A stretch of 64,000 nt of DNA, taken from NCBI GenBank assembly GCA_018302765.1, contig JAGVZG010000001.1:1-64000 (forward strand), in the 5' to 3' direction. The DNA comes from Candidatus Woesearchaeota archaeon (GTDB taxonomy: Archaea; Nanobdellota; Nanobdellia; SCGC-AAA011-G17; GW2011-AR18). Under the pieces are notes generated by a model. That model did no database searches, was not told the DNA's origin, and saw only the letters and a program-made list of their open reading frames with translations. Position 1 is the first letter of the stretch. Each line of letters begins with the position of its first letter. A program made the position numbers and the translations under genes. Below are positions 24,503 through 47,831 of the stretch, in pieces.

Positions 24503-24684
24503 TATTTTTTTGCAATGATAAATAAAAAATCCAGAATTAATAAATAAGTTATGTAATGATATCCAATTATCCTAATTTATAATATTATTTGAAAAAGCCT
24601 TGTGAGAAGATTTATGTAAAAGATAATAAATAGAAAAGAAATAATTTTGACAAAATATTTAAATGAGAGACAACTTAAGAAATT

Positions 24685-25871: not shown

Positions 25872-26178
25872 GTCAGGTGACTTAGTAATAGCAAGAGTTC
25901 AATATACAGATACTTATGAAGTAAAAACAAGGCCTGCTATAGTTTTGTTTGAGGAATATGACAATGTCGTTATTGCAGGAGTGACAAGCAATTTGAATAT
26001 GAAAGGAATACCTTTAACTAAAAAGGAAGGAGCAGTGGAAGATAGTATAATAAAATTAAATTATATATTTACAGTATCTAATGCTATGATATCAAAAAAA
26101 CTATTTCATTTGAGTTTAGAAAAGAAGAGATTAATTTATGAAGAGTTAAATAAAAAATTAGGTGGTTTGAAAAATTAA
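25864..26178 (+). CDS. PemK/MazF family toxin
   Basis: GDLVIARVQYTD..KTRPAIVL...AGVTSN. Confidence 0.88.
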   Translation: MFKSGDLVIARVQYTDTYEVKTRPAIVLFEEYDNVVIAGVTSNLNMKGIPLTKKEGAVEDSIIKLNYIFTVSNAMISKKLFHLSLEKKRLIYEELNKKLGGLKN

Positions 26179-26255
26179 TATAATATTTCTTGCTACTAAC
26201 TGGCAATCGCAATGAGCTTAAATAAAATTTAGTACATTTTTATTTAGAAATAATG

Positions 26256-26612
26256 TCAAACTTTTTCTTCTAGATTTCCTTTTGATTTTAATTTTCTTTC
26301 TTCAGTCCAGACTTGTTTTATTCTATCCTGAGAATATCCTAGCATTCTTGCTGCTCTGCTTAAATTTCCATCATACATATTGTAAGCCCTAATAATTGTT
26401 CTTCTTGTTATTTCATCTATAGGTCTTCCGTTAAATCTTTTTCCTCCTGGTTTATTTATTTTATAGATAGCTTTTACCCAGTAGTTTCTTATTGTTGAGA
26501 CGCTTACAAAAATATTATCTTCTGTTAATAATTCTCTTGCTTTTGTTATACTTCCTTCTGCTCTGCTATATATTTCTAGAACTCTTGTTTTTTCATAGTC
26601 TGAAATTGTCAC
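26256..26612 (-). CDS. Hypothetical tandem-HTH protein
   Basis: Two similar HTH units (GSITKARELL..SVSTIRNYW; GNLSRAARMLGYSQDRIKQVW). Confidence 0.65.
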   Translation of the reverse strand: MTISDYEKTRVLEIYSRAEGSITKARELLTEDNIFVSVSTIRNYWVKAIYKINKPGGKRFNGRPIDEITRRTIIRAYNMYDGNLSRAARMLGYSQDRIKQVWTEERKLKSKGNLEEKV

Positions 26613-26880
26613 TAATTTTATCTTTGTTTTAAATTATTAAGTCTTTTTGTAAGATAAAATATACTTTAATTACGTTGAATTAGAGAATAGAATTTTTTTG
26701 CAATATTATTTTTCTTTGTATTTTTAGAGTCATGAAAAATTTTATATACAAGTAAAAATCGCAACTTTTATATATAGGACAGGTTTGTCAGAAACATGAT
26801 GCTTTCTAAGACCCAGCCAGAAATATCTACATTGGCTTAAAAACGTCTTAGATAGTGGTATATTAACTAATAGAAAAAGA

Positions 26881-27051
26881 GGGCCGGTAGCTCAGCTTGG
26901 TAGAGCACCTGAAACAAGCTTTAATGAGAAGCTTGAACAAAAACGAAAGTTTGAATTGGTGAACCTTTTAAATCAGGCTGATGAAAGCAGGTGGTCGTGG
27001 GTTCAAAACAGATTAAGCTGGTGTTTATCTGTGTATTTCCCATCCGGCCCG
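26881..27051 (+). tRNA. tRNA-Lys(UUU) with three introns (26912-26963 at 30/31; 26971-26985 at 37/38; 27008-27037 at 59/60)
   Basis: GGGCCGG/CCGGCCC acceptor and canonical D arm. Splicing gives CCTGC-CTTTTAA-GCAGG and GTGGG-TTCAAAT-CCCAT. The first intron has a clean BHB (CACC/GGTG). Confidence 0.87.
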
Positions 27052-30685: not shown

Positions 30686-31129
30686 ATGGATGAATATTCA
30701 TTAGAAAGAATGGATGGCGGAGGCAAATTGAGTTTACCTAACGGCGGATTTTATAACTTAAGAGTAGCAGAACATAATAGTTTTTTATTACTGCTAGACA
30801 TTTCTCATTATCAAGGATCTGTTTTTGGTTTGAATATTTACCCTCATCATGACGGTATTGTTTGTGGCACTAATAAACCAGATGGACTTGAAATTTGTGG
30901 ATCTTATTTAGTTAATAAAATCATTGTAGGAGCTGATAGATTGGGAGGTCTAGATAATGCAGAACTTGATAGATTTCATAGTTATATTATAAGAAAGAAT
31001 AGAGACATGTCTTTTGATTTAGGAAGATTAGTTGAACTAAGAGACACTGAGAAATGGTTAATGAGAAGAGACGACTTTCCAAGTTTTAAAACTTTTTTAA
31101 GCGGAGTTATTAGGAGGGCAAAGAGCTGA
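30686..31129 (+). CDS. Hypothetical protein inserted inside the RNA polymerase operon
   Basis: 147-aa ATG ORF with 1-nt gaps to rpoB' and rpoA'. Confidence 0.7.
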   Translation: MDEYSLERMDGGGKLSLPNGGFYNLRVAEHNSFLLLLDISHYQGSVFGLNIYPHHDGIVCGTNKPDGLEICGSYLVNKIIVGADRLGGLDNAELDRFHSYIIRKNRDMSFDLGRLVELRDTEKWLMRRDDFPSFKTFLSGVIRRAKS

Positions 31130-31130
31130 G

Positions 31131-33722
31131 ATGGTAGAGAACTATGTTTACAAGAAAGTAGATTCAGTAGTGTTTGGAATGATGAGTCCTGAGTTAGTCA
31201 AGAAGATGGCTTGTGCTAAAGTTGTAACTCCTGAACTTTATGATAAAGAAGGTTATCCTGTAGATGGTGGGCTTATGGATATTAGATTAGGAGTTATAGA
31301 TCCTGGTCTGAGATGCAAAACTTGTGGTGGAAATTTAAGAGACTGTATGGGTCATTTTGGGTATTTAGAATTAGCTAGGCCTATTATTCATTTAAAATAT
31401 GCTGATGTAATATTAAATTTTTTGAGGTGCAGTTGCAGAGAGTGCGGAAAATTACTTACAGATAAGAAGGTTAAAATTGCTGTTGAGGAAGATGAAGGAG
31501 CAGAGCATCATGCTGAGGAAGAGGCTGGCGAGGATGAAGTAAGCACAAAGAAACAAGTTAAGAGCATAACAAGCAGTTTAAGAAATGTAAAGAAATGTCC
31601 TCATTGCGGCGCAAAACAATTCCAAGTAAAACTTGAGAGACCTACTACGTTTTTAGAGGATGATAAAAGATTAAATCCAATTGATATAAGAACAAGACTA
31701 GAAAGAATAAGTGATTCTGATATTGCTTTTTTAGGATTAGATCCTTCTTTTGCAAGGCCTGAATGGATGGTTCTAATTATTTTGCCAGTGCCTCCAGTTA
31801 CTATAAGACCGAGCATTACTTTAGAGACAGGAGAAAGAAGTGAAGATGACTTAACTCATAAATTAGGTGATATAGTAAGAATTAATCAGAGATTATTTGA
31901 AAACATTAATGCTGGAGCGCCTGAAATAATTATTGAAGACCTTTGGGATCTTTTGCAGTATCATATTACAACTTATTTTGACAATGAAGTTAGCCAAGTT
32001 CCTCCTGCTAGGCATAGAAGCGGGCAGGCACTAAGAACTTTGACTGAGAGAATTAAAAGCAAAGAAGGAAGATTTAGGCACAACCTTGCTGGAAAAAGGG
32101 TTAACTATGCAGCTAGAACTGTTATTAGCCCTGATTCTAAAATGGAACTGAATGAAGTTGGAGTTCCTATAGAAGTTGCTATGGAATTAACAGTTCCTGA
32201 GAGAGTTGTAGAATGGAACTTAAAGAGACTAAAGAAGTTTGTTGAAAATGGCCCTAAGAAATATGTAGGAAGCAATTATGTTGTAAGACCTGATGGCAAG
32301 AAGAAAAAAATTACTGATGAAACACAAGAGCAATTATTAGAAGAGCTGCAGCCAGGCTATATTGTTGAGAGACATTTAATGGATGGCGATATTGTAATAT
32401 TTAATAGGCAACCTACACTGCACAGAATGAGTATTATGGCACACAGAGTTAGAGTTCTGCCTGGCAAGAGTTTTAGATTAAATCCAGCTATATGCAATCC
32501 GTACAATGCAGACTTTGATGGCGATGAGATGAACTTACACGTCCCACAGACTGAGGAAGCAAGAGCTGAAGCTGAAATTCTTATGGAAGTACAGACACAA
32601 ATTATAACACCAAAAAGCGGCTTGAATGTTATAGGATGCAGTGATGATGCTATTACAGGAAATTATTTGTTAACTAAAAACATTAAGATGAGTAAAGAAG
32701 ATGCAGTTCAGATGCTTCATAGTGTTGGCGTATTAAATATTGAAAGATTTGATAAATTTAAAAAAACAGTTGATGGCAAAGAAATATTTAGTGCCATACT
32801 TCCTGATGGTTTTGATTTCAGTGGATATTCTAAGTCTAAGGAACCTATTGTTATAAAAAATGGTTATTTAATAGAAGGAGTAATAGATAAATCAACTATA
32901 GGACAGGATAAAGGCGATTTAATAAGAGCGCTGTATGCAAAGTATGGATCTAGTGTTGGTTTAGATTTATTAGGAAAAATATTTAGATTAGGAATTGCTG
33001 TTTTGCTTAAACATGGTTTTACTACTTCTATAGCAGATACAGATCTGCCACAGGAAGTTTCTGATAAATGCAAGGAAACAATTTATAATTCGGAAAGAAG
33101 AGTAGCACAACTCATTGAGCAATATAGCAGCGGTGAATTAGAGGCTTTGCCTGGCCTGACATTAGAAGCTACTCTAGAAGCAAAAATTATGGAAGTTTTA
33201 AACAGATGCAGACAGCGTGTTGGTGAGATAATTGCTGAGAGTAATTTAGAAGAGAACTCTACATTGGTGATGGCTTTATCAGGGGCTAAAGGCAGCTACC
33301 TGAACTTATCTATGATTGCTGCTTGCGTGGGCCAGCAGGCTTTGAGAGGTAAGAGAATTGAACTTGGTTATAGGGGAAGAACTTTAAGTATATTTACAAA
33401 AGGAGAACTGAGTCCTAGAGCTAAGGGATTTATTAAGAGAGGATATAAAGAGGGGCTAACTCCTGAAGAGTATTTCATGCATGCAATGACTGGAAGAGAC
33501 AGCTTAATGGATACTGCTTTAAGAACACCAAAATCAGGTTATTTGTATAGAAGATTAGCAAGTGCTTTACAAGATATAAGAGTTGAGTATGATAATACTG
33601 TGAGAGATGCAAACCAGAATATTGTGCAGTTTATTTATGGAGAAGATGGCCTGGATGTTTCGAAGACAGAGGGTGGAAAAATAAATGTTGCTAGGATTAT
33701 TAGAGAGGTACTGGGAGAATAA
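31131..33722 (+). CDS. rpoA1: RNA polymerase subunit A' (Rpo1N)
   Basis: Catalytic YNADFDGDEMN, GHFG, LAGKRVNY. Confidence 0.99.
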   Translation: MVENYVYKKVDSVVFGMMSPELVKKMACAKVVTPELYDKEGYPVDGGLMDIRLGVIDPGLRCKTCGGNLRDCMGHFGYLELARPIIHLKYADVILNFLRCSCRECGKLLTDKKVKIAVEEDEGAEHHAEEEAGEDEVSTKKQVKSITSSLRNVKKCPHCGAKQFQVKLERPTTFLEDDKRLNPIDIRTRLERISDSDIAFLGLDPSFARPEWMVLIILPVPPVTIRPSITLETGERSEDDLTHKLGDIVRINQRLFENINAGAPEIIIEDLWDLLQYHITTYFDNEVSQVPPARHRSGQALRTLTERIKSKEGRFRHNLAGKRVNYAARTVISPDSKMELNEVGVPIEVAMELTVPERVVEWNLKRLKKFVENGPKKYVGSNYVVRPDGKKKKITDETQEQLLEELQPGYIVERHLMDGDIVIFNRQPTLHRMSIMAHRVRVLPGKSFRLNPAICNPYNADFDGDEMNLHVPQTEEARAEAEILMEVQTQIITPKSGLNVIGCSDDAITGNYLLTKNIKMSKEDAVQMLHSVGVLNIERFDKFKKTVDGKEIFSAILPDGFDFSGYSKSKEPIVIKNGYLIEGVIDKSTIGQDKGDLIRALYAKYGSSVGLDLLGKIFRLGIAVLLKHGFTTSIADTDLPQEVSDKCKETIYNSERRVAQLIEQYSSGELEALPGLTLEATLEAKIMEVLNRCRQRVGEIIAESNLEENSTLVMALSGAKGSYLNLSMIAACVGQQALRGKRIELGYRGRTLSIFTKGELSPRAKGFIKRGYKEGLTPEEYFMHAMTGRDSLMDTALRTPKSGYLYRRLASALQDIRVEYDNTVRDANQNIVQFIYGEDGLDVSKTEGGKINVARIIREVLGE

Positions 33723-33723
33723 A

Positions 33724-34839
33724 ATGTTACCGCAACACTTAATTGCTAAAGTTGAGGATTATTCAAAGAAGTATAAAATTAGTGATAAGGACCAGAAGGA
33801 GATTTTAAAGAGAGTTGAGGAAATTTATAACAAAGCTAAAATTTCTCCTGGTGAATCTATTGGAGTAATTACTGCTGAGAGTTTTGGTGAACCTAGTACC
33901 CAAATGACGTTGAATACATTTCACTTTGCAGGTGTGGCAGAGATGAACGTTACTGTTGGCCTGCCAAGACTGATAGAAATATTTGACGCAAGAAAGAGGC
34001 CAAGCACCCCAAGAATGGAAATTCCGATAAAATCTAAATATTCCAGGACTGTTGAAGCAGTAAGAGAAGTTGCTATGAAGATTAAGGAAACTAAATTGGG
34101 AGACATAGCACAGGAAATTTCTATTAATATAGCCAAAGCTACAATTGAAATTGTTTTAGATAAGAAGAAGATGAGGGATTTGGACATTAAACCAAAATTA
34201 GTTCTAGACAAAATAGCAGAGGGATTAAAGAGTGTTGATGTTAAGGATAATGATAGTTCTGTAATACTTAAATCTAAAGAAAAAGAAATATCTTTGTCTG
34301 AAGTTTATAAATTGAAAGAGAAAGCAAAGTCAATCCACATAAGAGGTTTACAGGGAGTTACTCATGTTTTACCTGTCAAGGGAGATGATGGTAATTATAT
34401 TATACATTGTGCTGGAAGCAATTTAAAAGACGCTTTGCTTTTAGAGGAAGCTGAAAAAGAGAGAATAATGACTAACGATATTTTTGAAATTTCTGATGTT
34501 TTAGGCGTAGAAGCTGCTAGAGCTGCCATAATCAATGAAGCTAATAAAGTTATAAAAGATCAAGGCATTGATATAGATATCAGGCACGTAATGTTTTTAG
34601 CTGATGTCATGACAAGAAGCGGTACTGTAAAGGGTGTAACTAGAACAGGAATTGTTGGAGAAAAAGAGAGCGTATTAGCTAGAGCTAGTTTTGAAACTCC
34701 AATTAAACATATAGTTAATGCTAGTTTAGTAGGCGAGAAAGATAATTTGAATAGTGTTGTTGAAAATGTTATAATAAATCAACCAGTTCCTCTTGGCACT
34801 GGATTGCCTGGCTTAATTGCCAAAATGAAGAAGGACTAA
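33724..34839 (+). CDS. rpoA2: RNA polymerase subunit A'' (Rpo1C)
   Basis: GEPSTQMTLNTFH, GLPRLIE, LARASFE. Confidence 0.98.
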   Translation: MLPQHLIAKVEDYSKKYKISDKDQKEILKRVEEIYNKAKISPGESIGVITAESFGEPSTQMTLNTFHFAGVAEMNVTVGLPRLIEIFDARKRPSTPRMEIPIKSKYSRTVEAVREVAMKIKETKLGDIAQEISINIAKATIEIVLDKKKMRDLDIKPKLVLDKIAEGLKSVDVKDNDSSVILKSKEKEISLSEVYKLKEKAKSIHIRGLQGVTHVLPVKGDDGNYIIHCAGSNLKDALLLEEAEKERIMTNDIFEISDVLGVEAARAAIINEANKVIKDQGIDIDIRHVMFLADVMTRSGTVKGVTRTGIVGEKESVLARASFETPIKHIVNASLVGEKDNLNSVVENVIINQPVPLGTGLPGLIAKMKKD

Positions 34840-35092: not shown

Positions 35093-35500
35093 ATGAAATT
35101 AACTTTAGATTCTATAAATAATATTAACTTATTTGAGAACTTAACTAGAGCTAAGGTTAAAGACTGTTTTCAGGAAGATGGCGTTCTTGTTTTTTTAGTT
35201 GAAGAGGGCAATGTTAAGAAAGCTTTAGGAAAAGACAGTTCAAATATTGATAGAATCAGCAAAATACTAAAAAAAGATATTAAAATTATTGCTTTTTCTA
35301 ATGATATTTGCAAATTTGTTAGTAATTTAATATATCCAAATAAGGCTGACGAGATAAAATTAGAAGGCAAAACTGTTTTTATAGTTGCCAGTGATGTTGG
35401 TGTCAAGGGAAGAATATTTGGCAGGTCAAGAGAAAATCTAAAGAGAATAAATTCCTTAGTTAGAAATTATTTCGACGTGGAAGAAGTTAAAGTTGTATAA
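35093..35500 (+). CDS. nusA: Archaeal NusA-like KH-domain transcription factor
   Basis: TRAKVKDC, two KH motifs (ALGKD, IFGRSRENL). Confidence 0.93.
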   Translation: MKLTLDSINNINLFENLTRAKVKDCFQEDGVLVFLVEEGNVKKALGKDSSNIDRISKILKKDIKIIAFSNDICKFVSNLIYPNKADEIKLEGKTVFIVASDVGVKGRIFGRSRENLKRINSLVRNYFDVEEVKVV

Positions 35501-35516: not shown

Positions 35517-36167
35517 TTATATTTTTCTTAAACAGTATCTTGCATTTGCGCTTTTACAATTACCCATACTATTTACTTCTAAGTTTCCAATTTTTTTATT
35601 GCTTGTATTTCTTGGACTTAAGTAAAATGGTGCGTCAACGCCTATTATTTTTCCTGTATATTTTTCAGCTGTCATTAGTTGTGTTACTCTTGCCATGCTT
35701 AAGTACTCTCCAACGCCTAGACCCCAAACAGCAACTGTTCCTTCTTTTCCTATTTCATGAGCACTAATAATTAATATTTGATGTCCTTGTGCTGGATACA
35801 ATCCTATTGTACCTGGTTCAGCTTTAGCCACTGCTTCATCTTTTTTGCTGTAAGTTCTATAAGCGCCAGTTTCTGTAACTAATCCACTCCATGAGTTCAT
35901 TACATCATTTGCATATGATAAAGAACTTCCACAAAGTTCTTCTGCTACAGTTACTGGGTCTCTGGAAAAGAAATCTGGTGCATAGAGATGTGTTCTTCCT
36001 GCATTTACTAGTGCTTCTGGAAGTTGGCCTAATGTTTTCTCATCGCCTTCCCTCATATTTTTTAATAATCTTTCTAAATTGTTATCTAGTTCAATACCCA
36101 TTCCTAATAGTCTTCTTCTTGTTAAATTTGCAAATGCTTCTAATAATTGGTTTTTTCCCATTGCCAT
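35517..36167 (-). CDS. Divergent 3-methyladenine DNA glycosylase (AAG/MPG)-like protein
   Basis: PDFFSRDPVTVAEELCG...GLVTETGAY...PGTIGLY; the catalytic ETEAY motif reads ETGAY. Confidence 0.7.
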   Translation of the reverse strand: MAMGKNQLLEAFANLTRRRLLGMGIELDNNLERLLKNMREGDEKTLGQLPEALVNAGRTHLYAPDFFSRDPVTVAEELCGSSLSYANDVMNSWSGLVTETGAYRTYSKKDEAVAKAEPGTIGLYPAQGHQILIISAHEIGKEGTVAVWGLGVGEYLSMARVTQLMTAEKYTGKIIGVDAPFYLSPRNTSNKKIGNLEVNSMGNCKSANARYCLRKI

Positions 36168-36168
36168 T

Positions 36169-37263
36169 TTATTCTCCTTGCCTGATAATTGTTACAGGCA
36201 TTCTATGATTAATGTTGAAATCTTTGAACTTTCCCATAATCTCAAACTTTCTTCTTACCCTATTCAGAACCTCTTTTTCTTCGTCTGATGTTACTGCAAT
36301 GTTGTTGTCAATATCTCTTAAAACATCATCATGACTTACATCAGGTTTTCTATAAAGATTTAAATATCTTTCTGTTAATGTTTTTTCTATTCTTGCTTTT
36401 AATACATCTTTAATATTGAATGCTTGATAAGATAATATTTTTCTTTTTCTATTTGCAGCTACTGCACTCCAGTCTATACTTACGTTATTTCCATTTACTC
36501 TTACTCTTCTTGGCCCAGGTATGTAGACTTTGCTAGTGCGTTCTGGCTTTACTATAAATAAATTATTACCATTTGCATATTTTAGATACAGTGCTAATAA
36601 ATTCTCATCTGGTTCTGTTTCTTTATACGTTAATGCAGAACAGTGCAATAATTTTGCTCTTTCTGAAAGTTCTGAGTTTGCTATACTAAATATTCCATCT
36701 TCTAAGTCTTCTTCACCATATCTATATACCAATCTTGTTGTTAAATTTAGGTAAGTTCCTTGTGGTTTTGCTGTTGGTATGATTTTTTCCTTTGTTATGT
36801 CATATCTGAGTAAAAAATTAAATAAGTCTATTTTCTCATCTAACTTTCTTTTTTCTTTTAGCTCTGCATAAATTTCTAGCACTTCTTCGATTAATCTTTT
36901 GTCTGAGACAACAGCAACTGCATCTTCTATTTTTGAGTAACTTGCATTTTCTAATGCTTCTGTGTAAACTTTTTCAATTAAATCTCTGTTTGCCATCGAC
37001 AGCATTGAAAAGTGACCTACTGTTGACGTTGCTTTTGGAATGAGTGATTCTGGTTTTTTAGCTTCTTCTTTGCTTATTCTAAATGTTTCTGGAATAAATT
37101 CTCTATATGAATTTGCAACACTGTACTCTCCTAATTTATCACAGTTCCAGAAAAATGCGAACGACCATAAGTTATATGTTCTGTCATACTTAGCAGTACC
37201 ATAAGTTGCTAACATTATGTCAGCAAGTTCTGCAGCTTGTTGGTTGTATTTTTCTCTTTCCAT
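36169..37263 (-). CDS. Hypothetical protein (364 aa), member of the five-gene operon
   Basis: Long ORF with 1-nt spacing to both neighbours. Confidence 0.85.
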   Translation of the reverse strand: MEREKYNQQAAELADIMLATYGTAKYDRTYNLWSFAFFWNCDKLGEYSVANSYREFIPETFRISKEEAKKPESLIPKATSTVGHFSMLSMANRDLIEKVYTEALENASYSKIEDAVAVVSDKRLIEEVLEIYAELKEKRKLDEKIDLFNFLLRYDITKEKIIPTAKPQGTYLNLTTRLVYRYGEEDLEDGIFSIANSELSERAKLLHCSALTYKETEPDENLLALYLKYANGNNLFIVKPERTSKVYIPGPRRVRVNGNNVSIDWSAVAANRKRKILSYQAFNIKDVLKARIEKTLTERYLNLYRKPDVSHDDVLRDIDNNIAVTSDEEKEVLNRVRRKFEIMGKFKDFNINHRMPVTIIRQGE

Positions 37264-37264
37264 T

Positions 37265-40200
37265 TTATTCTTCTGCCAGTTTTCTTAGCACTGCTGCCAG
37301 TCTTGATAATTCCTCTTCTGGTGTTTCTCTTATTGTTTCTCCGAGTGCTAATATCTCTGGATGTATTGGTTCTCCTTGCGTTGGTTTTATTTTTGTAGGC
37401 TCTATATCTGTATCTATATTTAAGAATCCTGAACATTCATATCTTCTGAATTTTGCTTCTTTTTTTATTATTTCTGCTTCATTTTGGGTTCCATCTACTA
37501 TTTTGTATTCTTCTAACATTCTAAAGTAATGCCCTTCTTCATATCTTGACTTCTTGTCATCTATTTTTTTTGCTACAATTACATATGCTTCAAACCCATT
37601 TCTCTTTTCTTCGCCTGTATCTATGTCAATAGACTTCATTGATTTGTAAGTTCCAGTTAATTGCCTGTCTATTTCAAAGCCAATTTCAGTCATATCTTTA
37701 ATGAACTGTTCCCTGCAACTTATATCTATCTTTGATGTTGGTTCTATAATTAACATATAACTACCATTTTTCATTACTCTTTTATTTTCAGTGAAGTATT
37801 GTTTTCTTTCTTCTTCTGTTGCAAAATCCAAGGCCAAAGAACATACAATTAGATCCTTAGACTTTTCTTCCAAGCTTTCTGTTTTTTCATATTTCTTTTT
37901 CGGATCAAACACTTTGTTCTCTTGTGAATGAGGGACTAGATTTCTTAGGTCTGTGTAAGAACCCAAATAATATTTGTTTTCTTTATTTCCTTTTTCTTCA
38001 CATGCATCTATTCCATAATCTAATTGAAATCTATTTACATCTATGCATATAGTTTTTCTTTCTAAAATTCTTGATACTGTTGCTGGGCCAGAACCTTCAT
38101 CCAGTATGTCTTCAAGTTTTCTTCCTATTTTATTTTCTAGTCCTAGAATAATATCCCTTGCCAGTCTTGCACAATTGGATGAGAAACTGTATTCCCATGC
38201 GTAGTTATAATTTTTTGCTAGGAACATTGCATTGTCATGCGCACTCATTTCCTCTACAAATCTTTCTACACCTCTGCCCCTGAGATTATTAAACATTAAT
38301 GCAACTATGCTTCTTGAGTTTAAATTCAACAAACTACCAATTTCTGCTGATTTCTCTGGTTTTGTATCATCTATGAAAGCATTTATTTCCTCTGGTGTTG
38401 CATCTTCTCCCTTGAACACTAGGTTTATTAAATATGCCTTCCAGTCTCTGAATTTATACTTTGAATCTTCAAACGTGTTTACTGCTCTTGGTTGATGTAC
38501 TTCAACTTCATTATGTTTTCCAGATCTTACAATTCTGGCTAATAATTGTTCAAATCTTGCCGGTACTGTTGTAGCTTCATATTCTATTAGCATATCTGCT
38601 TCCTGAACATCTGCTCCTTCTCTTAGTGTTCCATAGCTTACTGATAATACTGTTTTTGCTGGGTTAGTTTGAAATTCTAATAAAGCTAGATCCCTTTGTG
38701 ATGGATCCCATATTTCATAGTTTCTAATTTCTAATCTTTGTCTTGCTGCGAGAGATAGATCAGATCTGAATTTTTGTCCTTCTTCATAAAGCCCTTCTGA
38801 TCTTAATGTTTCAATTTCTTCATTTTTTAATTGTATTTCTACTGGCTGTGCTGATACTGTCTGATCTATTCTTACACACCCATATTCAGCTAGTTTTTCC
38901 TCTAGAAAACTTGTCAGATTAGTTGAATATTCACATGCAACAATAACTTTTTTATTGTCTTTTTTTGCTTTTTTTATTATTTCTACTGTTGTTTGTAACT
39001 TGCTTGGAATGGTATTTTCTGCATATTCTCTTAATTTTGGATTTATTTCAAAGAATCTTTCTATTTTATTTTTTAATGAGTCTTGTCTTTCACTATCTGT
39101 AAAGTTATCAGGAAGCAGCTTTTTTGGATTTGTAAGTAGATAATTTAATAGTAAGTATCTCTCTCTACCTTCAAATAATGTTGAGTTTATTATTTCTATA
39201 TACAAGTCTGTTTCTTTTTCTGTTAATTCATAATTAACATTTATGAGAATTGGTTCTTTTACATCTGGATCTACATCTTTTAGTTCCCTGATTGGATTTG
39301 AATGTATGTCCAGTACTGCCCTTACTATTTTTGGATTGTCCCTAAATACTGCAGTGAAATCTTTAGGGTTATCTATAATACCCATTAGATAAAATTCATA
39401 GGCTATATTTGAAACATAGTTTCTAATTCCTGTTCCGCTTACCAATGTTCCCCATTTTGAATATCTGAATAATTCTCCAAGGGCTATTGCAGTTGCTGAA
39501 TCAGGATCTATTACATTGTGTATTTCATCATATATGACATAGTAAGGCTTACCATCTGCTCTGAATGCCTGCTGTCTTAACGCTGTTGCAATGCTTGCAG
39601 CTTCTGCATTTTTTTCTTCGATTACTATTCTTTTCAGCAAAGCATCTAGACTTCTTTCTTTTCTTGTATATTCTTTAAAATGATCTTCTATCATTGAATT
39701 TCTGAGAATTTCCAATGCCCTTTCTTTTGTGTAAACAGTTGTTAGAAGTTCTATGTATTTCTCTTCCATTTCTGCTGCAGTTTCTGGATCACTTATATCT
39801 ATGCCTGTTCTTCTATGGCTCAGTTCATAACCTAGCAACACAAGATCTACGTCTTCTCTTGCTGCTTTTTTTATAGAATATCTTCTATTTCTTCTTGTAA
39901 CTACACTGATATTTGGATCTTTTAATAACCTTTCTGCTTCTCTGATCCATGTTGGAATTATATACGTTGGACAGCATATCAATGTTTTAACTTTGCCATT
40001 TTCTCCAAGTTCTTTCATAAAAACTTCATTAATTATGGGTATTGCAGACAGAACCCCAATAGTTTTTCTTGTTCCTGGCTTGCTAAACTCAAATCTTTTT
40101 TTGCCTTCCATTCCAGATAATGCTATTTCTGTTGCTGCTAGTTGTTGTTCTGGAGATGGAATGTCTACAGTTGATGCATCAAAATAAGTATCTCTTCCTA

Positions 40201-40369
40201 AATTATTAAATATATTTTCTATCCCGCCAAATTCTTCTGCTTCTTGTATTATTTGTGATCCATATGGGAATTGTTCTAGAAAATGTTTGTTTGGAATGAA
40301 TCTTAATCTATTCAAAACTCTGCTTATTCCTTGCTCTAGTTCTATAAGTTTCTGAGGTTCTATTTGCAT
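37265..40369 (-). CDS. SNF2-like SF2 helicase/ATPase fused to a class I SAM-dependent methyltransferase
   Basis: Helicase motifs SKPGTRKT (I), LICCPTYIIPTW (Ia), DEIH (II), SGTGIRN (III), REGAD (V), QLLARIVRSG (VI); C-terminal ILDEGSGP and DLIVCSLALDF. Confidence 0.85.
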   Translation of the reverse strand: MQIEPQKLIELEQGISRVLNRLRFIPNKHFLEQFPYGSQIIQEAEEFGGIENIFNNLGRDTYFDASTVDIPSPEQQLAATEIALSGMEGKKRFEFSKPGTRKTIGVLSAIPIINEVFMKELGENGKVKTLICCPTYIIPTWIREAERLLKDPNISVVTRRNRRYSIKKAAREDVDLVLLGYELSHRRTGIDISDPETAAEMEEKYIELLTTVYTKERALEILRNSMIEDHFKEYTRKERSLDALLKRIVIEEKNAEAASIATALRQQAFRADGKPYYVIYDEIHNVIDPDSATAIALGELFRYSKWGTLVSGTGIRNYVSNIAYEFYLMGIIDNPKDFTAVFRDNPKIVRAVLDIHSNPIRELKDVDPDVKEPILINVNYELTEKETDLYIEIINSTLFEGRERYLLLNYLLTNPKKLLPDNFTDSERQDSLKNKIERFFEINPKLREYAENTIPSKLQTTVEIIKKAKKDNKKVIVACEYSTNLTSFLEEKLAEYGCVRIDQTVSAQPVEIQLKNEEIETLRSEGLYEEGQKFRSDLSLAARQRLEIRNYEIWDPSQRDLALLEFQTNPAKTVLSVSYGTLREGADVQEADMLIEYEATTVPARFEQLLARIVRSGKHNEVEVHQPRAVNTFEDSKYKFRDWKAYLINLVFKGEDATPEEINAFIDDTKPEKSAEIGSLLNLNSRSIVALMFNNLRGRGVERFVEEMSAHDNAMFLAKNYNYAWEYSFSSNCARLARDIILGLENKIGRKLEDILDEGSGPATVSRILERKTICIDVNRFQLDYGIDACEEKGNKENKYYLGSYTDLRNLVPHSQENKVFDPKKKYEKTESLEEKSKDLIVCSLALDFATEEERKQYFTENKRVMKNGSYMLIIEPTSKIDISCREQFIKDMTEIGFEIDRQLTGTYKSMKSIDIDTGEEKRNGFEAYVIVAKKIDDKKSRYEEGHYFRMLEEYKIVDGTQNEAEIIKKEAKFRRYECSGFLNIDTDIEPTKIKPTQGEPIHPEILALGETIRETPEEELSRLAAVLRKLAEE

Positions 40370-40374
40370 TTTTA

Positions 40375-42006
40375 TTATGTTGCATCTTTATTCTCACCAG
40401 TTCTTTTTTCTATTTCATCAACAAAGTACTGCCTGTTTATTCCAATGTATGATCTTAATAGTCTAACTAAATATGTACCACATTCAGTTAATGGTCTTTC
40501 TTCATATCTTATTGATGTAAATCTGCCTTTATCTTTATCTAGTAATGAATCATATAATGTTCTGCCAAAAGTACTGCATTCTCCTTGCGTGTTTAATTCA
40601 GTCTTTTTTTCATCAAATACGCCTTTCTCTAATTGTTTTACAAATGCTTTTTTGAGAAGCCTATCGTACAAGTCATATCTTTCTATTAAATTTCCTATGC
40701 CATCTGTGTATTCATTCATTGCACCTCCAATAGTTCTTGGTTCTGATCCTTTATCTGTTTCTTTTTCCATTACACCTTCCATCCATAATCCCGCAACCAA
40801 AAATCTGAAAAATATTTTATCATAAGAATGATCAGGATCTATAACTAATCTGCCAAGATCAGATACTGCTTCAAATATCTTATCTCTAGATGACCTTTCG
40901 TCTTCTGTTGTTCTTAACTTAGGCAAAATGTTCTTTTGTATATATTCATCATTTTTTATATAATCAGCAGCTTTCGCATAAGCAACCCATTTAGCTGTGC
41001 TTGAAATATATCTCTTAAAATCTTCCTTACTCATTTCTATTCCAGTTCTTTTTACTGAATATAGTACGTCCAATGCTAATTGCCTAAAACATATAACAAA
41101 GTGTTCTCCTTTATCATCCAATCTTTTGGATATTTTTTTATCAATGAATCTTTTATACAATGGAAGAACTGATTCTGATTTTTCACATAATTCTCTTAGT
41201 TTTTTCTTTTCGCGATCTTCTCTTATTATATATTCAAGCAGAACTTCTCCAGCTGTTTTCCTTATATCTTCCTTTTCTATTATTTCAGTTATAACTCTTT
41301 TAGTTTTACGGCTTATTTCTCCTCTGTGTTTTGCAACGTATGACGTTATTGATTCTACTTCTATTGTTAAACCTAAATTTGTTGCTGTTTCTAAAAATGC
41401 TGGGTCATTTATTATTTCTTCTAGGTCGTCTCTATTTGTGAATGTACGTGTTTTTTTAATTTTCTCAGGATTAGCTAAAGCAAAGAATGCCAGTGCGTCT
41501 GCATTTTCAATTAAGTAAGTATCTAGTGCTTGGTCTCTAACATATCCTGGTTTGTCTTTTGTTGGTTTAAAGGTTGGCTTTCCTTTTTTACCTGTCTTTT
41601 TCTTTTTAGCTGAGTCTATACGGTTTGATGTGTCAAGCATTGTTGAATAAGCTAATATGTCTGTAATTTCATCTAAACCTTGTTGCGGGTCTGATAGGTC
41701 TAAATTTCCATCTTGGCCTTTTGTGAGTATGACCTTTCCACCTTTCATAATTGTTACATAGTAAATATTACTTCCAGGTATTCTCATCATTACAATTTTG
41801 GTATCTGATCCTGAATTTCCAGTTGGTTCTTCTGAAGTTGTTGTTCTTGCAAGTGGATCTAATCTATGCAATAATTCTTCTAGTTCTCTTCTATCTTGTG
41901 GCCTTTTTGTATCTATATTACCATCTACTGCTAATCTAACTAATTCATGATAACTAAGTCTTTCCTGTCTTGCAAAATCTTTTAGTGTTATTTTACCGTC
42001 TGTCAT
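40375..42006 (-). CDS. Hypothetical protein with N-terminal HTH and a sigma-70 region-2-like segment
   Basis: ITLKDFARQERLSYHELVRLAVDG (excisionase-like HTH); EDFKRYISSTAKWVAYAKAADYIK. Confidence 0.7.
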   Translation of the reverse strand: MTDGKITLKDFARQERLSYHELVRLAVDGNIDTKRPQDRRELEELLHRLDPLARTTTSEEPTGNSGSDTKIVMMRIPGSNIYYVTIMKGGKVILTKGQDGNLDLSDPQQGLDEITDILAYSTMLDTSNRIDSAKKKKTGKKGKPTFKPTKDKPGYVRDQALDTYLIENADALAFFALANPEKIKKTRTFTNRDDLEEIINDPAFLETATNLGLTIEVESITSYVAKHRGEISRKTKRVITEIIEKEDIRKTAGEVLLEYIIREDREKKKLRELCEKSESVLPLYKRFIDKKISKRLDDKGEHFVICFRQLALDVLYSVKRTGIEMSKEDFKRYISSTAKWVAYAKAADYIKNDEYIQKNILPKLRTTEDERSSRDKIFEAVSDLGRLVIDPDHSYDKIFFRFLVAGLWMEGVMEKETDKGSEPRTIGGAMNEYTDGIGNLIERYDLYDRLLKKAFVKQLEKGVFDEKKTELNTQGECSTFGRTLYDSLLDKDKGRFTSIRYEERPLTECGTYLVRLLRSYIGINRQYFVDEIEKRTGENKDAT

Positions 42007-44711
42007 TGTGGTCTTAAATCTCCGAAATATTTTAATTCTATTTTTGCTCCAACTTTAGCTAGGTCAGACGATTCAAGTTTTTTCCTTGTTGTATCTATTA
42101 ATTTTGATAATCTCTCTGGTGTTGTTTGCCTATACACTAATTCTATATAATAACAATTACGTAATTCTCCTGTTTTTATTTCTGCATTTCTTCCCTTTAG
42201 TGTTGAGGCCAATGCTAGTGAAAAATCTAATGCTGCATTACTCCTGAAGTTTTGATTGTTTGTTGGTATTACAAATCTTAATCTATATCCATCTTTTTCT
42301 TGTACGTGATAAGAGAAACAGCCGAAAGTTGCATTTAATGGTATTCTTTTTCTAAATTCTGATGTTTCATCTAAAGCTTTGTTATGCATTATTTTTATAT
42401 TATCTATTTCATTTAATAATGCTTCTTCTTCTTCTTTTATTCTATAATGTTCTTTTTTTGCATCATTGTAATGTCTTATCAATTCTCTTGCTGCTCTTTC
42501 ATCTTCATTTAAAGATTCATCTTTTCTATGCTTAAATGTTCTCTCTGCTAGTGTAGCCATTTTATATGCAAGATTATGCTCTTCTGCATATCCAGTTTGG
42601 TCGAATTCAACATTATAATATTTCAATTTTTCAGATAATTCATCTATAGTCAATTCTCTATTTCTTAATTTTGGATCAATCTCTATTAATCTACTTCCTA
42701 ATTTTTCATATATTAGTTCTTTTAGATCTGTTTGTGCAATTACTAGATTTTCAGGTATTCCTTCTGGGAATAGTTTATTATATTCTTCAATTGCTGCATT
42801 TAGTTCTGGTGAATAGACTTTTCTAAATGCTTCAACTAAAATTTCTTCTGCTGTAAGATTTACAATTGAATTTTCTTTTACTAACATTTCTAATTCTGAC
42901 TTTTCTTTTTCTAATGCTGTTGCTATTTCTTTTAGTTCTTCAAGTCTAGCTTCTGTTTTTATAAGTTTTTGTTCTTCTACTTTAGCTGCTTCTCTTAGTT
43001 TTGCTTCAGCAGCACTTACTGTTTCTCTTCTTTTTTCTTCTATTGCTGCTAACAATCCTGATTTATAATTTGCTAAATCTTTATCATTATCTAATTTAGT
43101 TTCAAATGGTGATTTGTGGTTAACACTTATTGCAATTTCATGTAGAAGTGCTTCTATTGAAGTAGCGTATGTATTTGCATTTCTTGACTCTTTCTTTGCT
43201 TCAGTTATTCTTCTCTTATTTTCATCTAATGCTGCTAACAATCCTTGAGTGTATGTTGCAAGTTTTGTTTTACTTTTTGGCTCTATTTCAGTTTTGTATT
43301 CTACTGCTTCAGCTATATTTGCTAATAATACCAATACACTATCTATGTAAATGTTTGTTCTTTCTAATTCTTGTTTTTTCCCTTCAAGTTCTTCTTCTAT
43401 TCTTCTGAATCCTGCAACTTTATTTTTAGACTTTTCAAATTCTGTTGTTCCTTCAGCTCCGAATGTTTTTTCATACTCTTGTAATCTTCTTGTAAAGTCA
43501 CCTTTATCTTGTTCTTTTTTGCTATAAATTTCTTTATCATCTCTTACAAGTTCTAGGATATCTTTTAATGGAGTAATTTCAGCTTTTCTTTTTGGTAGAT
43601 TTGTTCTTATTGCATCTGCTATAAGATCTGCATCTAATGTTGTATTTTGTACCCTAAATCCTATAACTTTCTTTGTAAGTCCTTTTGGGTCATTATTTGC
43701 TGTTATTTTACCTAAATATACCATATTGTTATTTGGTTCTTTTTTATTAACAAGTTTTTTTAATTCTCTTTCTAATACACCAATATCGCTTGGTTTTTTT
43801 CTTTCTATTATGATATCATAGTGCTTATAACCATCTATTTTATTGTACGTTCTTGAACCACTTGCAACTTTTTTAGCTTTGTCTTTTGGTTCATTAGTTA
43901 CTTCTGTTTTTTTTATCTGTATTTTTTCCCCTTTTAATGCATCCAGAATTCTAATGCTATACCTTTCGAATTGTTCATCATTTAACATATCATTTTCAGT
44001 TGGTGTTGGTTCACCAAGATCTTCTGCGACAGCTGTTAATAGACCTTCTAAGTTTCCTCTATATTTTATTGATCTTTCTTTTTCTTCTATTATATTTCTT
44101 GTTAGTTCTTCTACTGCTATTTTTAATTTTTTTTCACCTTTTATTGTTCTTCTTTTTGGAAAATCATGGCCTACCGAAGTTGCAATTGTTTCTACAGAAT
44201 CATAAATTGCATCAATTATTTCATTTAATGAAGTTGTTGCGCTTCTACATCTTTCTCCTATATTTGTTTTTATTGCTATGCCAAGTTCTTCAGTATAGCC
44301 AATTAAACCAGGTCTTTTTTCTAATTCTTTTGGCGTTGGAGTTCTATAATCTACAATACGTGCAAGAGTCTTGAATCCTTCTGCAAGTGCATTTAGATCT
44401 ATATCTTTTGTTTCTTTAACTTCTGCTAATTCTGGCTTATCAACACACGTTATTGAAAATTCCCCAGTATCAAATCTTTTAGTTATTATTCTTCTTAGTG
44501 TGGCTTCATTTAAATCTCTACCTTCTATTTTTACACCAAATTTACGCTCTCTAGAATCTCTTAAATATTCTATATTAACTTTATCAATGTTTTTTCCAAA
44601 CGAACAATCTATTAAATTTTTTAGTATACCTGCTGTTCTTGAATTGCCGCTTGTAACTCTAATTTCATAAATTCTTGCAGTTCTATTTTCTTGATTAGAT
44701 GATGCTATCAT
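42003..44711 (-). CDS. Large coiled-coil protein with internal ~50-aa repeats
   Basis: 902 aa; heptad-rich segments and repeated LL..IA..V...LA.Y..GLLAA units; no Walker A. Confidence 0.85.
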   Translation of the reverse strand: MIASSNQENRTARIYEIRVTSGNSRTAGILKNLIDCSFGKNIDKVNIEYLRDSRERKFGVKIEGRDLNEATLRRIITKRFDTGEFSITCVDKPELAEVKETKDIDLNALAEGFKTLARIVDYRTPTPKELEKRPGLIGYTEELGIAIKTNIGERCRSATTSLNEIIDAIYDSVETIATSVGHDFPKRRTIKGEKKLKIAVEELTRNIIEEKERSIKYRGNLEGLLTAVAEDLGEPTPTENDMLNDEQFERYSIRILDALKGEKIQIKKTEVTNEPKDKAKKVASGSRTYNKIDGYKHYDIIIERKKPSDIGVLERELKKLVNKKEPNNNMVYLGKITANNDPKGLTKKVIGFRVQNTTLDADLIADAIRTNLPKRKAEITPLKDILELVRDDKEIYSKKEQDKGDFTRRLQEYEKTFGAEGTTEFEKSKNKVAGFRRIEEELEGKKQELERTNIYIDSVLVLLANIAEAVEYKTEIEPKSKTKLATYTQGLLAALDENKRRITEAKKESRNANTYATSIEALLHEIAISVNHKSPFETKLDNDKDLANYKSGLLAAIEEKRRETVSAAEAKLREAAKVEEQKLIKTEARLEELKEIATALEKEKSELEMLVKENSIVNLTAEEILVEAFRKVYSPELNAAIEEYNKLFPEGIPENLVIAQTDLKELIYEKLGSRLIEIDPKLRNRELTIDELSEKLKYYNVEFDQTGYAEEHNLAYKMATLAERTFKHRKDESLNEDERAARELIRHYNDAKKEHYRIKEEEEALLNEIDNIKIMHNKALDETSEFRKRIPLNATFGCFSYHVQEKDGYRLRFVIPTNNQNFRSNAALDFSLALASTLKGRNAEIKTGELRNCYYIELVYRQTTPERLSKLIDTTRKKLESSDLAKVGAKIELKYFGDLRPQ

Positions 44712-47084: not shown

Positions 47085-47831
47085 ATGAAAGAAATTATTA
47101 AAAAAATAAAATCTAAAAAAACATTGGATAGATTAGATGATACATTTGTTGAAAGTTTTCTAAATATTTTTTTGAAGAAAAATTCAAAATTAAATAAAAA
47201 ATATTTAGATGGAGAATTAAAGAAAAAAGACATAAGGATTATAGTTAAGTCAGTCAGGAATAATTTGAACAGATTTTATGGACAGTTTTGGACTAGTGAC
47301 AAATTAAAATTGGAATCACATAGGTCTACTAAGGAAAGACTAGGAATCTATGATAAATTATATAGTTTTATTTTTTCTATTACTTGTAGGCCTAAAACAA
47401 TTCTGGACTTGGCTTGTGGTTTAAATCCATTGACTTACAAGAACATAGGCAATGATATTTATTTTATAGCTGTGGAACTTACAGAATATGACTGCGGTAA
47501 AATTAAAGAGTATTTTGAAAGGGAAAACATTAAAGGAGAGGTTATAAGAGCAGATCTTAGAACTTATAATACGTTCCCGAGTGCAGATCTGTGCTTTATG
47601 TTTAAAATTTTGGATAGCTTAGGAGGCAATAACAATTTAATTGCTGAGAACTTGATCAGAAGCGTAAAAGCAAAATATATTGTTGCTAGTTTTTCAACTA
47701 AAAATGTTAAAGGAAAAAAGATGAATTATCCCAAGAGAGGATGGTTTGAGATAATGCTTAGAAGGATAGGATATAGGTTTGTTAAGTTTGACACAAACAA
47801 TGAGGTCTTTTACATTATTAAAAAATTATAG
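47085..47831 (+). CDS. ArmA/RmtB/FmrO-family rRNA methyltransferase homolog
   Basis: HRSTKERL and ILDLACGLNPL family signatures. Confidence 0.85.
   Translation: MKEIIKKIKSKKTLDRLDDTFVESFLNIFLKKNSKLNKKYLDGELKKKDIRIIVKSVRNNLNRFYGQFWTSDKLKLESHRSTKERLGIYDKLYSFIFSITCRPKTILDLACGLNPLTYKNIGNDIYFIAVELTEYDCGKIKEYFERENIKGEVIRADLRTYNTFPSADLCFMFKILDSLGGNNNLIAENLIRSVKAKYIVASFSTKNVKGKKMNYPKRGWFEIMLRRIGYRFVKFDTNNEVFYIIKKL

What the first reader, a model, noticed from the sequence alone, without database searches (positions are those of the whole stretch)
37265..40369. SNF2-type helicase fused to a non-DNA-type SAM methyltransferase
The SF2 motifs are in order, but motif I is GTRKT instead of GxGKT and an ~80-aa helical insert precedes DEIH. 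The C-terminal ~300 aa carry the SAM-binding ILDEGSGP and DLIVCSLALDF, but no NPPY/DPPY or PC motif of DNA methyltransferases. This points to an RNA, protein or small-molecule substrate coupled to DNA translocation.
Basis: partly seen in the sequence, partly recalled or inferred. Interest (0 to 1): 0.7.

Follow-up and report, generated by a model that had tools for sequence, protein, structure and literature searches.

The report
DNA motor fused to unusual methyltransferase
A tiny symbiotic (DPANN) archaeon encodes a DNA-tracking SNF2 motor fused to a methyltransferase of the rRNA/small-molecule type; it is the hub of a rare gene set, not found in the papers searched, that usually includes a look-alike of a DNA-repair glycosylase lacking its catalytic residue, so it probably marks DNA in an unfamiliar way.

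Summary

The host is a ~1 Mb DPANN (Nanoarchaeota) archaeon. The gene is third in a tightly packed five-gene operon (35517-44711, minus strand). Four of the five genes recur together down to 26% identity.

The SNF2-methyltransferase fusion itself is a large family not described in the papers I searched: 138 clusters at E<1e-30. It occurs in about 3.5% of good genomes of the phylum. In 11 of 15 independently found loci it lies beside a relative of alkyladenine DNA glycosylase (AAG) that usually lacks the catalytic Glu.

GxRKT plus the insert marks the ~1000-1080-aa subfamilies, including both five-gene clades.

My best reading (0.45) is a DNA-tracking methyltransferase that works with a base-flipping pseudo-glycosylase in an accessory DNA-marking or surveillance module. 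The substrate is unproven.

This scan has met the same family before on other DPANN and CPR DNA. No literature or PADLOC entry for it was found.

The parts
37265..40369 (-). Gene C: 1034-aa SNF2 ATPase fused to a class I SAM methyltransferase (P0001), stop codon included
   Evidence: ORF list and translation. Pfam SNF2-rel_dom, Helicase_C and Methyltransf_8. 13 homologues of 32-100% identity.
40100..40369 (-). N-terminal helical region, residues 1-90, with the conserved IPSxEQ element
   Evidence: Helices 4-19, 35-47, 50-56 and 73-87 in the model. V68, I70, P71, S72 and Q75 are invariant. No family match.
39425..40096 (-). SNF2 ATPase lobe 1, residues 92-315: motif I GTRKT (99-103), Ia CPTYIIPTW, II DEIH (281-284), III GTG (312-314)
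39545..39817 (-). Four-helix insert in lobe 1, residues 185-275, between motifs Ib and II
   Evidence: Secondary structure of the full-length model. The motif I-II spacing is 171-189 aa in GxRK[TS] relatives and about 95-115 aa in GxGK[TS] relatives.
38405..39424 (-). SNF2 helical protrusions and ATPase lobe 2, residues 316-655: motif V GTLREG, motif VI 608-617, and a lobe-2 insert around 502-560
   Evidence: Helicase_C 556-617. PDB profile hit to SsoRad54 1z63, E 1.4e-12. Foldseek top 50 are all SNF2 ATPases.
38126..38404 (-). Low-confidence linker (656-691) and helical cap of the methyltransferase (about 695-748), with conserved G700, N713, N722, W725, S728, S730, N732 and R735
   Evidence: pLDDT and helices. 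Invariant columns.
37562..38125 (-). Rossmann-fold SAM methyltransferase core, residues 749-936: motif I G761, motif II D777, post-beta4 DLIVCSLALDF, and family invariants R855, E861, R864, P877, G897, F898, G906
37268..37561 (-). C-terminal tail, residues 937-1034: a disordered basic linker, a conserved strand (C979, F982, N984, T987; FxNxDT) that packs on the domain, and a terminal helical hairpin
35517..36167 (-). Gene E: 216-aa AAG/MPG-like protein with Gly at the catalytic Glu position; the family's recurrent partner
   Evidence: Pfam Pur_DNA_glyco (weak) and NCBIfam 3mg. Family profile against human AAG, E 1e-8. Motif comparison.
36169..37263 (-). Gene D: 364-aa protein of no known family, its start codon one base after the stop of gene C
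   Evidence: Homologues directly downstream of the fusion gene in both five-gene clades and in L032, L038 and L043. No Pfam or PDB match.
40375..42006 (-). Gene B: 543-aa protein of no known family, directly upstream
   Evidence: Homologous between the two five-gene clades by hhalign (97% probability, E 7e-11, 454 columns). No Pfam or PDB match.
42003..44711 (-). Gene A: 902-aa first gene of the operon, whose stop overlaps the start of gene B
   Evidence: Homologues only in the close clade. The same-position protein of the second clade is not detectably related.

Best explanation
Gene C encodes a duplex-DNA-tracking SNF2 motor fused to a catalytically competent SAM methyltransferase of the general class I type; its nearest solved structure is Rrp8/nucleomethylin. 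It is the enzymatic hub of an accessory module (B-C-D-E plus a variable first gene A) found patchily in DPANN archaea.

Proposed mechanism:
1. The motor loads on DNA and translocates along it.
2. The tethered methyltransferase methylates a base, most likely a purine. The AAG-like partner E helps to expose or recognise that base. E keeps the aromatic residue aligned with AAG Tyr127 but lacks the catalytic Glu, so it binds rather than cuts.
3. The result is a DNA mark used for self/non-self discrimination or DNA surveillance.

Shown here: the domain identities, the conservation of ATPase and SAM-binding residues, the gene linkage, and the patchy distribution. Inferred: that DNA is the substrate, that E acts as a reader or base presenter, and the biological role.
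For: **SNF2 motor.** Pfam. PDB profile hit to SsoRad54, E 1.4e-12. The full-length model's 50 best Foldseek hits are all SNF2 ATPases, including CSB, ISWI and INO80. K102, T103, D281, E282, H284, Q608 and R612 are invariant.

**Partner tie.** An AAG-like gene lies within the locus in 11 of 15 loci that were found with the methyltransferase-domain profile alone and have at least 4 kb of flank on each side. It is directly adjacent in L026, L027, L028 and L041. The partner profile matches human AAG at E 1e-8, and the catalytic Glu125 column is mostly Gly or Ala. From established knowledge, AAG E125Q still binds flipped lesion DNA; that mutant was used for the 1EWN crystal structure.

**Module conservation.** C, D and E recur by sequence and B by profile comparison between clades of 26-28% identity.

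**Accessory status.** Long-form family members occur in about 14 of 401 genomes of the phylum that are at least 90% complete. Full-length close relatives occur in 5 of 201 genomes of the order. Some loci have DNA-conflict neighbours: UvrD-PDDEXK and NYN (L026), NERD and PIN/MazE (L040), Hjc (L028).
Against: - The methyltransferase fold is of the rRNA/small-molecule type, and no member has a DNA-methyltransferase target-recognition motif.
- The P-loop Gly before Lys is replaced by Arg, so ATPase activity is not assured.
- Four of the 15 loci lack an AAG-like neighbour. Of five partner-less genomes searched whole, three (G149, G017, G380) have none detectable with this profile, so the partner is not obligatory.
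- No PADLOC model matches any of the five genes beyond weak SNF2 hits, and the window has no island signature in base composition.
- Several loci sit beside RNA polymerase genes, which would fit a transcription-linked role instead.
Confidence: 0.45

Rival explanations
1. A transcription-coupled factor. Like bacterial RapA or eukaryotic CSB, the SNF2 motor engages RNA polymerase on DNA, and the Rrp8-like domain methylates nascent RNA (for example N1 of adenine) or a polymerase or chromatin protein.
For: Family genes lie next to RNA polymerase genes in several unrelated subfamilies. Examples are the window and L024 (convergent with nusA), L027 (directly after rpoH-rpoB-rpoA-L30e-nusA on the same strand), L023 (directly before L30e-nusA), L041 (rpoN) and L003 (rpoP). 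CSB in Pol II complexes is the top Foldseek hit of the full-length model (E 2.2e-17). The nearest methyltransferase structure is an rRNA m1A enzyme.
Against: CSB leads ISWI and INO80 by a trivial margin. The adjacency was noticed after the fact in about 5 of 24 loci and was not tested against a proper null; small DPANN genomes are dense in information-processing genes. A transcription factor would not be expected in only about 3.5% of genomes. This reading does not explain the AAG-like partner.
Confidence: 0.15
2. The methyltransferase-fold domain does not transfer methyl groups to a macromolecule. It binds SAM (or SAH) as a sensor or structural module that gates the motor.
For: In two close relatives (P0011, P0012) motif I reads LSLASGP and has lost the Asp and the first Gly. 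The clade carries a 25-aa insert between motifs III and IV, so Pfam matches only the second half of the domain. No substrate-binding motif is recognisable.
Against: G761 and D777, which contact SAM in class I enzymes, and R855, E861, R864 and P877 are invariant across 13 members at 21-66% identity. All 13 match Methyltransf_11/25. This conservation is compatible with catalysis but does not prove it.
Confidence: 0.1
3. A counter-defence device of a mobile element, analogous to the DarB-type methylase-helicase dyad. It methylates the element's own DNA to escape host restriction.
For: SNF2-methyltransferase coupling is a recurrent theme in phages, plasmids and conjugative elements (PMC5512222). 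An ESM Atlas cluster of helicase plus Methyltransf_8 proteins is reported mainly from bacteria and Uroviricota (score 0.95; a lead only). BFVD holds a 992-aa DEXDc phage protein whose fold matches this methyltransferase domain (rank 5).
Against: The window locus lies between core genes (nusA and RDD/SppA). Its GC content matches its surroundings, and I saw no integrase, repeat or tRNA boundary. tblastn of three family members against 50,697 phage records matched the helicase part only, or nothing. Domain order and methyltransferase type differ from DarB.
Confidence: 0.08
4. A protein methyltransferase that remodels and marks archaeal chromatin proteins (Alba, histones) as it translocates.
Against: Those neighbours rank well below Rrp8. 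There is no link to chromatin-protein genes in any locus examined, and the AAG-like partner is left unexplained.
Confidence: 0.07

Closest known systems
Rrp8 / nucleomethylin (Pfam PF05148 Methyltransf_8; PDB 2zfu), the eukaryotic rRNA m1A methyltransferase
   Different: By sequence the domain is equally or more like the generic Methyltransf_11/25 families: 13 of 13 members match them, and the best PDB sequence hits are structural-genomics methyltransferases. Rrp8 is not fused to a motor and has no AAG-like partner. Its substrate is rRNA.
DarB-type 'DNA methylase-helicase dyad' of phage and plasmid polyvalent proteins (Iyer et al. 2017, PMC5512222)
   Same: One polypeptide joins a methyltransferase and an SWI2/SNF2-clade ATPase. 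The proposed logic is the same: the motor translocates on duplex DNA and delivers the methylase.
   Different: There the methyltransferase is an N6-adenine DNA methylase placed N-terminal to the helicase and preceded by LPD36. Here the order is reversed, the methyltransferase has no (D/N)PP(Y/F) motif, and the gene is chromosomal in an archaeon.
DISARM class 1 (DrmD SNF2 helicase with DrmMI methyltransferase, DrmA, DrmB, DrmC)
   Same: It is a multi-gene accessory system combining an SNF2 ATPase with a methyltransferase. There is a weak PADLOC hit to DrmD: 15.4 bits, E 9.6e-4.
   Different: No DrmA, DrmB, DrmC or DrmMI/MII match was found among the five genes. Here the methyltransferase is fused and is not a DNA type, and the partners B and D match no known family while E is AAG-like.
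DNMT5 (fungal and algal SNF2-fused cytosine-5 maintenance methyltransferase)
   Same: An SNF2 ATPase and a methyltransferase are joined in one chain. This precedent is from my own knowledge and an earlier scan note, not from a tool result.
   Different: DNMT5 carries a C5 DNA methyltransferase domain. The PC and ENV motifs and the DNA_methylase Pfam family are absent here.
Sulfolobus solfataricus Rad54-like SWI2/SNF2 ATPase core (PDB 1z63)
   Same: It is the best sequence-profile match of the motor among solved structures (E 1.4e-12). It is an archaeal duplex-DNA translocase.
   Different: It has a canonical P-loop, no lobe-1 four-helix insert and no methyltransferase.

Membership tests
SNF2 (SWI2/SNF2) ATPases | SF2 motifs I, Ia, II, III, V and VI in order | tested here: met
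   Residues 99-103, about 133-141, 281-284, 312-314, about 580-587 and 608-617.
SNF2 (SWI2/SNF2) ATPases | Match to SNF2-rel_dom above Pfam's gathering score, and an SNF2-type fold with helical protrusions | tested here: met
   27.5 bits against a cut-off of 24.9. SsoRad54 at E 1.4e-12. All 50 best Foldseek hits are SNF2 ATPases.
SNF2 (SWI2/SNF2) ATPases | Canonical P-loop GxGK[TS] | tested here: not met
   It reads GTRKT. R101 is invariant in 12 homologues. GxRK[TS] occurs in 25 of 116 family representatives.
SNF2 (SWI2/SNF2) ATPases | DNA-stimulated ATPase and translocation on duplex DNA | not testable with these tools
   This needs a biochemical assay.
Class I SAM methyltransferases (Methyltransf_11/25 group) | Rossmann fold with a glycine-rich motif I and an acidic motif II residue | tested here: met
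   G761 and D777 are invariant. PF08241 and PF13649 match in 13 of 13 members. Fold hits.
Rrp8/nucleomethylin (PF05148) | Match above the gathering score over most of the model | tested here: inconclusive
   27.8 bits against 27 for the whole protein, but covering only model positions 118-183 of 219. The domain alone scores 26.3 bits.
Rrp8/nucleomethylin (PF05148) | Closest structure | tested here: met
Rrp8/nucleomethylin (PF05148) | N1-adenine methylation of large-subunit rRNA | not testable with these tools
   This needs a biochemical assay.
Amino (N6A/N4C) DNA methyltransferases of R-M, BREX, DISARM and DarB | Motif IV (D/N/S)PP(Y/F/W/H) | tested here: not met
   Absent from P0001 and from 11 other family members.
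Amino (N6A/N4C) DNA methyltransferases of R-M, BREX, DISARM and DarB | Match to N6_Mtase, N6_N4_Mtase or MethyltransfD12, or to PADLOC methyltransferase models | tested here: not met
   None at E <= 0.01.
C5 DNA methyltransferases (DNMT5-like fusions) | PC and ENV catalytic motifs; DNA_methylase Pfam family | tested here: not met
   Motifs absent; no Pfam hit.
DISARM | DrmA, DrmB and DrmC (or DrmE) encoded with DrmD and a Drm methyltransferase | tested here: not met
   PADLOC scan of all five operon proteins gave only weak DpdE, DrmD and PDC-M02B hits, all on the SNF2 part of gene C.
DarB-type methylase-helicase dyad | LPD36, then adenine methyltransferase, then SNF2-clade helicase, in that order (PMC5512222) | tested here: not met
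   Here the helicase comes first and the methyltransferase last, and it is not an adenine DNA methyltransferase.
AAG/MPG alkylpurine DNA glycosylases (partner gene E) | Sequence homology to the AAG fold | tested here: met
   Family profile against human AAG (1bnk, 1f4r), E 1e-8.
AAG/MPG alkylpurine DNA glycosylases (partner gene E) | Catalytic Glu (human E125) and intercalating Tyr (Y162) | tested here: not met
   The window protein reads ETGAY, with Gly at the Glu position, and has Gln at the Tyr162 position by my hand alignment of the motif. Most partners have Gly or Ala at the Glu position. L017 and L037 keep the Glu.

The most novel reading that the evidence does not exclude
The module deliberately writes a methylpurine of the kind normally treated as damage (such as m1A, m3A or m7G) into duplex DNA. 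It uses a motor-borne Rrp8-like methyltransferase, and a catalytically dead AAG homologue reads or shields that mark. This would be a previously unknown class of DNA mark and reader, used by ultra-small archaea for self/non-self discrimination.
Probability: 0.12. Interest if true: 0.85.

Novelty: new variant of a known kind. Interest (0 to 1): 0.6.

Why it matters
Motor-methyltransferase fusions are known for classical DNA methylases (DarB-type dyads, DNMT5, and type I/III R-M logic). This family swaps in a methyltransferase of the rRNA/small-molecule type and pairs it with a pseudo-glycosylase of the alkylpurine-repair fold.

If the target is DNA, the family would show a route to DNA base methylation that needs no classical DNA-methyltransferase domain, with a repair-enzyme fold recruited as reader or base presenter. 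It would also add a candidate DNA-marking or defence system to DPANN archaea.

The family is large (138 clusters at E<1e-30, 50% identity) and I found no description of it. The proteins are soluble-looking and could be expressed in a model host, so the question can be tested directly.

Tried and rejected
- **tblastn against 50,697 phage records:** P0001 gave nothing, and P0109 and P0095 matched only in the helicase part. The Atlas lead of a bacterial and phage helicase plus Methyltransf_8 cluster could not be tied to this family by sequence.
- **Atlas search with the methyltransferase part alone:** only generic class I methyltransferases.
- **PADLOC on all five genes:** only weak SNF2-type hits.
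- **Partners B and D:** Pfam, NCBIfam and PDB profile searches found nothing.
- **Gene A:** profile comparison between the two five-gene clades showed no relationship.
- **Module as a clean insertion:** I tried to show this by synteny in the family. rpoA'' and the SppA gene are far apart or on different contigs in relatives, so the test is uninformative.
- **Promoter and terminator scan:** at background level, and not designed for archaea.
- **Literature searches:** five, none finding a description.
- **Model coordinates:** not available to scripts, so pocket geometry and electrostatics were not examined.
- **Rejected reading:** a housekeeping role, because of the 3.5% prevalence.
- **Rejected reading:** 'write then excise' by partner E, because most partners lack the catalytic Glu.
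Full report
**1. The object.** Window 37265-40369 on the minus strand is one uninterrupted ORF of 1034 aa (P0001). The host is an archaeon. Directly beside it on the plus strand lie split rpoB''/rpoB', rpoA'/rpoA'', a small ORF in the L30e position and a NusA-like KH protein. The assembly is 1.02 Mb in 28 contigs, 100% complete by markers. Named homologues come from Nanoarchaeia, Nanoarchaeota and Woesearchaeota. It is therefore a DPANN genome.

**2. Checking the observation.**
- GTRKT, residues 99-103
- DEIH, 281-284
- GTG, 312-314
- motif VI, 608-617
- ILDEGSGP, 755-762
- D777
- DLIVCSLALDF, 839-849

No (D/N/S)PP(Y/F/W/H), PC or ENV motif occurs in the protein, and no (D/N/S)PP(Y/F/W/H) in 11 other family members. 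Pfam finds SNF2-rel_dom, Helicase_C and, just above its cut-off, Methyltransf_8.

The ATPase residues K102, T103, D281, E282, H284, Q608 and R612, and the unusual R101, are invariant in 12 homologues of 32-72% identity.

A full-length AlphaFold model (pLDDT 75) puts four helices between residues 195 and 267, confirming the insert before motif II. Its 50 best Foldseek matches are all SNF2 ATPases such as CSB, ISWI and INO80. The best sequence-profile match among solved structures is the Sulfolobus Rad54-like core (E 1.4e-12).

**3. The methyltransferase domain.** I modelled residues 640-1034 with a 21-sequence alignment (pLDDT 83).
- Foldseek returns only class I methyltransferases acting on small molecules or rRNA.
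- By sequence the domain is as close to Methyltransf_11/25 (13 of 13 members) as to Methyltransf_8 (8 of 13).

I therefore call it a class I methyltransferase whose nearest solved structure is Rrp8, not a proven Rrp8 family member.

Across 13 members down to 21% identity, the SAM-contacting G761 and D777 are invariant. So are R855, E861, R864, P877, G897, F898 and G906. This argues for a working enzyme. A conserved C-terminal strand (C979, F982, FxNxDT) follows a disordered basic linker.

**4. The operon.** Gene C is third of five tightly packed minus-strand genes:
- A, 42003-44711, 902 aa
- B, 40375-42006, 543 aa
- C, 37265-40369, 1034 aa
- D, 36169-37263, 364 aa
- E, 35517-36167, 216 aa

The same five-gene order recurs with different flanking genes in relatives of 40-61% identity (L002, L003, L024). 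It recurs again in a second clade at 26-28% identity (L016-L018, L025).

D and E are recognisably homologous between the two clades. B is homologous by profile comparison (97% probability, E 7e-11). A is not. B and D match no known family or solved structure.

**5. The wider family.** A profile of the methyltransferase domain alone, run against 1.84 billion cluster representatives, finds 138 clusters at E<1e-30 and 785 at E<1e-10. In nearly all of the listed 150, the domain sits at the C-terminus of 770-1650-aa proteins. All seven long ones I scanned carry SNF2-rel_dom, and five of them also a Methyltransf_11-type family. The fusion is therefore a large family, and I found no paper that describes it.

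Within the family, GxRK[TS] and the long motif I-II spacing (171-189 aa) mostly go together. They mark two groups of about 1000-1080-aa proteins that include both five-gene clades. Nearly all other members have GxGK[TS] and a spacing of about 95-115 aa.

**6. The partner.** The E protein family matches human alkyladenine DNA glycosylase (profile E 1e-8).

Of 15 loci that were found through the methyltransferase profile alone and have at least 4 kb of flank on each side, 11 carry an AAG-like gene.
- With the partner: L026-L031, L037, L039, L040, L041, L043.
- Without it: L033, L034, L038, L042.

Counting all GTDB-sample loci from both genome searches, the partner lies beside the fusion gene in 10 of 15 genera with adequate flanks. 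I searched five partner-less genomes whole. Two have an AAG-like gene elsewhere, and three (G149, G017, G380) have none detectable with this profile. The tie is strong but not obligatory.

Most partners have Gly or Ala at the catalytic Glu125 position. The aromatic residue aligned with AAG Tyr127 is kept. By my hand alignment of the PGT motif, the window protein has Gln at the intercalating Tyr162 position. Two loci keep the Glu (L017, L037). In L018 and L025 a fully canonical AAG gene lies convergent to the module.

**7. Distribution.** With P0001 as query, 5 of 201 genomes of the order hold a full-length relative, and a further handful hold 780-870-aa forms. With the domain profile, about 14 of 401 genomes of the phylum that are at least 90% complete hold a long-form member; the other matches are stand-alone 200-270-aa methyltransferases.

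Two genomes in that sample (G401, G494) are flagged unpublished. They contribute only to the denominator and to the stand-alone hits, and no claim here rests on them.

The module is therefore accessory. In this window it has the same base composition as its surroundings, and I saw no mobile-element boundary.

**8. Interpretation.**

Firm results:
- an SNF2 motor with an odd but conserved P-loop;
- a conserved SAM-binding class I methyltransferase that is not a DNA type;
- a conserved B-C-D-E gene set;
- a frequent pseudo-AAG partner;
- patchy occurrence.

Inferred:
- the motor tracks DNA, as SNF2 enzymes do;
- the methyltransferase acts on a DNA base, because the most constant partner belongs to a fold that recognises flipped purines in duplex DNA;
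- the partner binds rather than cuts, because a Glu125 mutant of AAG still binds lesion DNA;
- the role is DNA marking or surveillance, because of the accessory distribution and the occasional conflict-type neighbours.

I give this reading 0.45.

The main rival (0.15) is a transcription-linked role. It is suggested by repeated adjacency to RNA polymerase genes in unrelated subfamilies. That pattern was seen after the fact and was not tested against a null.

Other rivals are a SAM-sensing non-catalytic domain, a mobile-element anti-restriction device, and a chromatin-protein methyltransferase.

**9. Known systems.** Membership was tested and not met for amino and C5 DNA methyltransferases, DISARM, and the DarB-type dyad. 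Five literature searches found no description.

This scan has reported the same family before on other DPANN and CPR DNA. I had already reached the Rrp8 and AAG conclusions before reading those notes.

One of those notes records that the bold 'damage-type mark' reading was later judged unsound, partly on a weak partner tie. My own count of the tie is 11 of 15. I nevertheless keep that bold reading only as the long shot (0.12).

**10. Verdict.** The protein is a new variant of the motor-methyltransferase theme, with unknown substrate and a testable mechanism. Interest: 0.6.

Noticed in passing
window 35093-35500 (nusA) next to 35517-36167; L027:9442-13951; L023:3779-7391; L041:1952-8638; L003:4606-8064: SNF2-methyltransferase modules of unrelated subfamilies lie within one to three genes of RNA polymerase genes (nusA/L30e/rpoA, rpoN, rpoP) in about 5 of 24 loci examined. 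This may mean a functional link or a favoured insertion site. No statistical null was run.
   Followed up: partly
L018:14559-15122 (-) and L025:2829-3410 (-): A fully canonical AAG gene (IVETEAY and VYVYLIYG motifs intact) lies convergent to, and directly after, the degenerate AAG-like gene of the module in the second five-gene clade. This suggests the partner arose by duplication of the repair gene.
   Followed up: partly
window 30686-31129 (+): A 147-aa ORF with no Pfam match is wedged between rpoB' and rpoA', starting 2 nt after one and ending 2 nt before the other. L027 has no such ORF between the same two genes.
   Followed up: no
relatives G156:C48 about 8587-11157, and G177, G533, G062, G119: In several genomes of the same family, rpoA'' matches in two pieces (residues 1-95 and 60-383) inside one open frame of about 850 aa. 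This looks like an intein-sized insertion. The window's own rpoA'' (33685-34839) lacks it.
   Followed up: no
window 47085-47831 (+): An FmrO-family (16S rRNA m7G1405 methyltransferase-like) gene, Pfam E 1.1e-16, sits in an archaeal core-gene neighbourhood.
   Followed up: no
window 1-64000: ARAGORN finds no tRNA gene in the whole 64 kb. An earlier follow-up of this scan reports three intron-split tRNA genes at 23866-27051 that standard finders miss.
   Followed up: no
L043:2377-12316: One relative (P0024) carries a rearranged version of the module. Its B-like and AAG-like genes and a 1003-aa gene lie on the opposite strand, divergent from the fusion gene and its D-like neighbour.
   Followed up: partly
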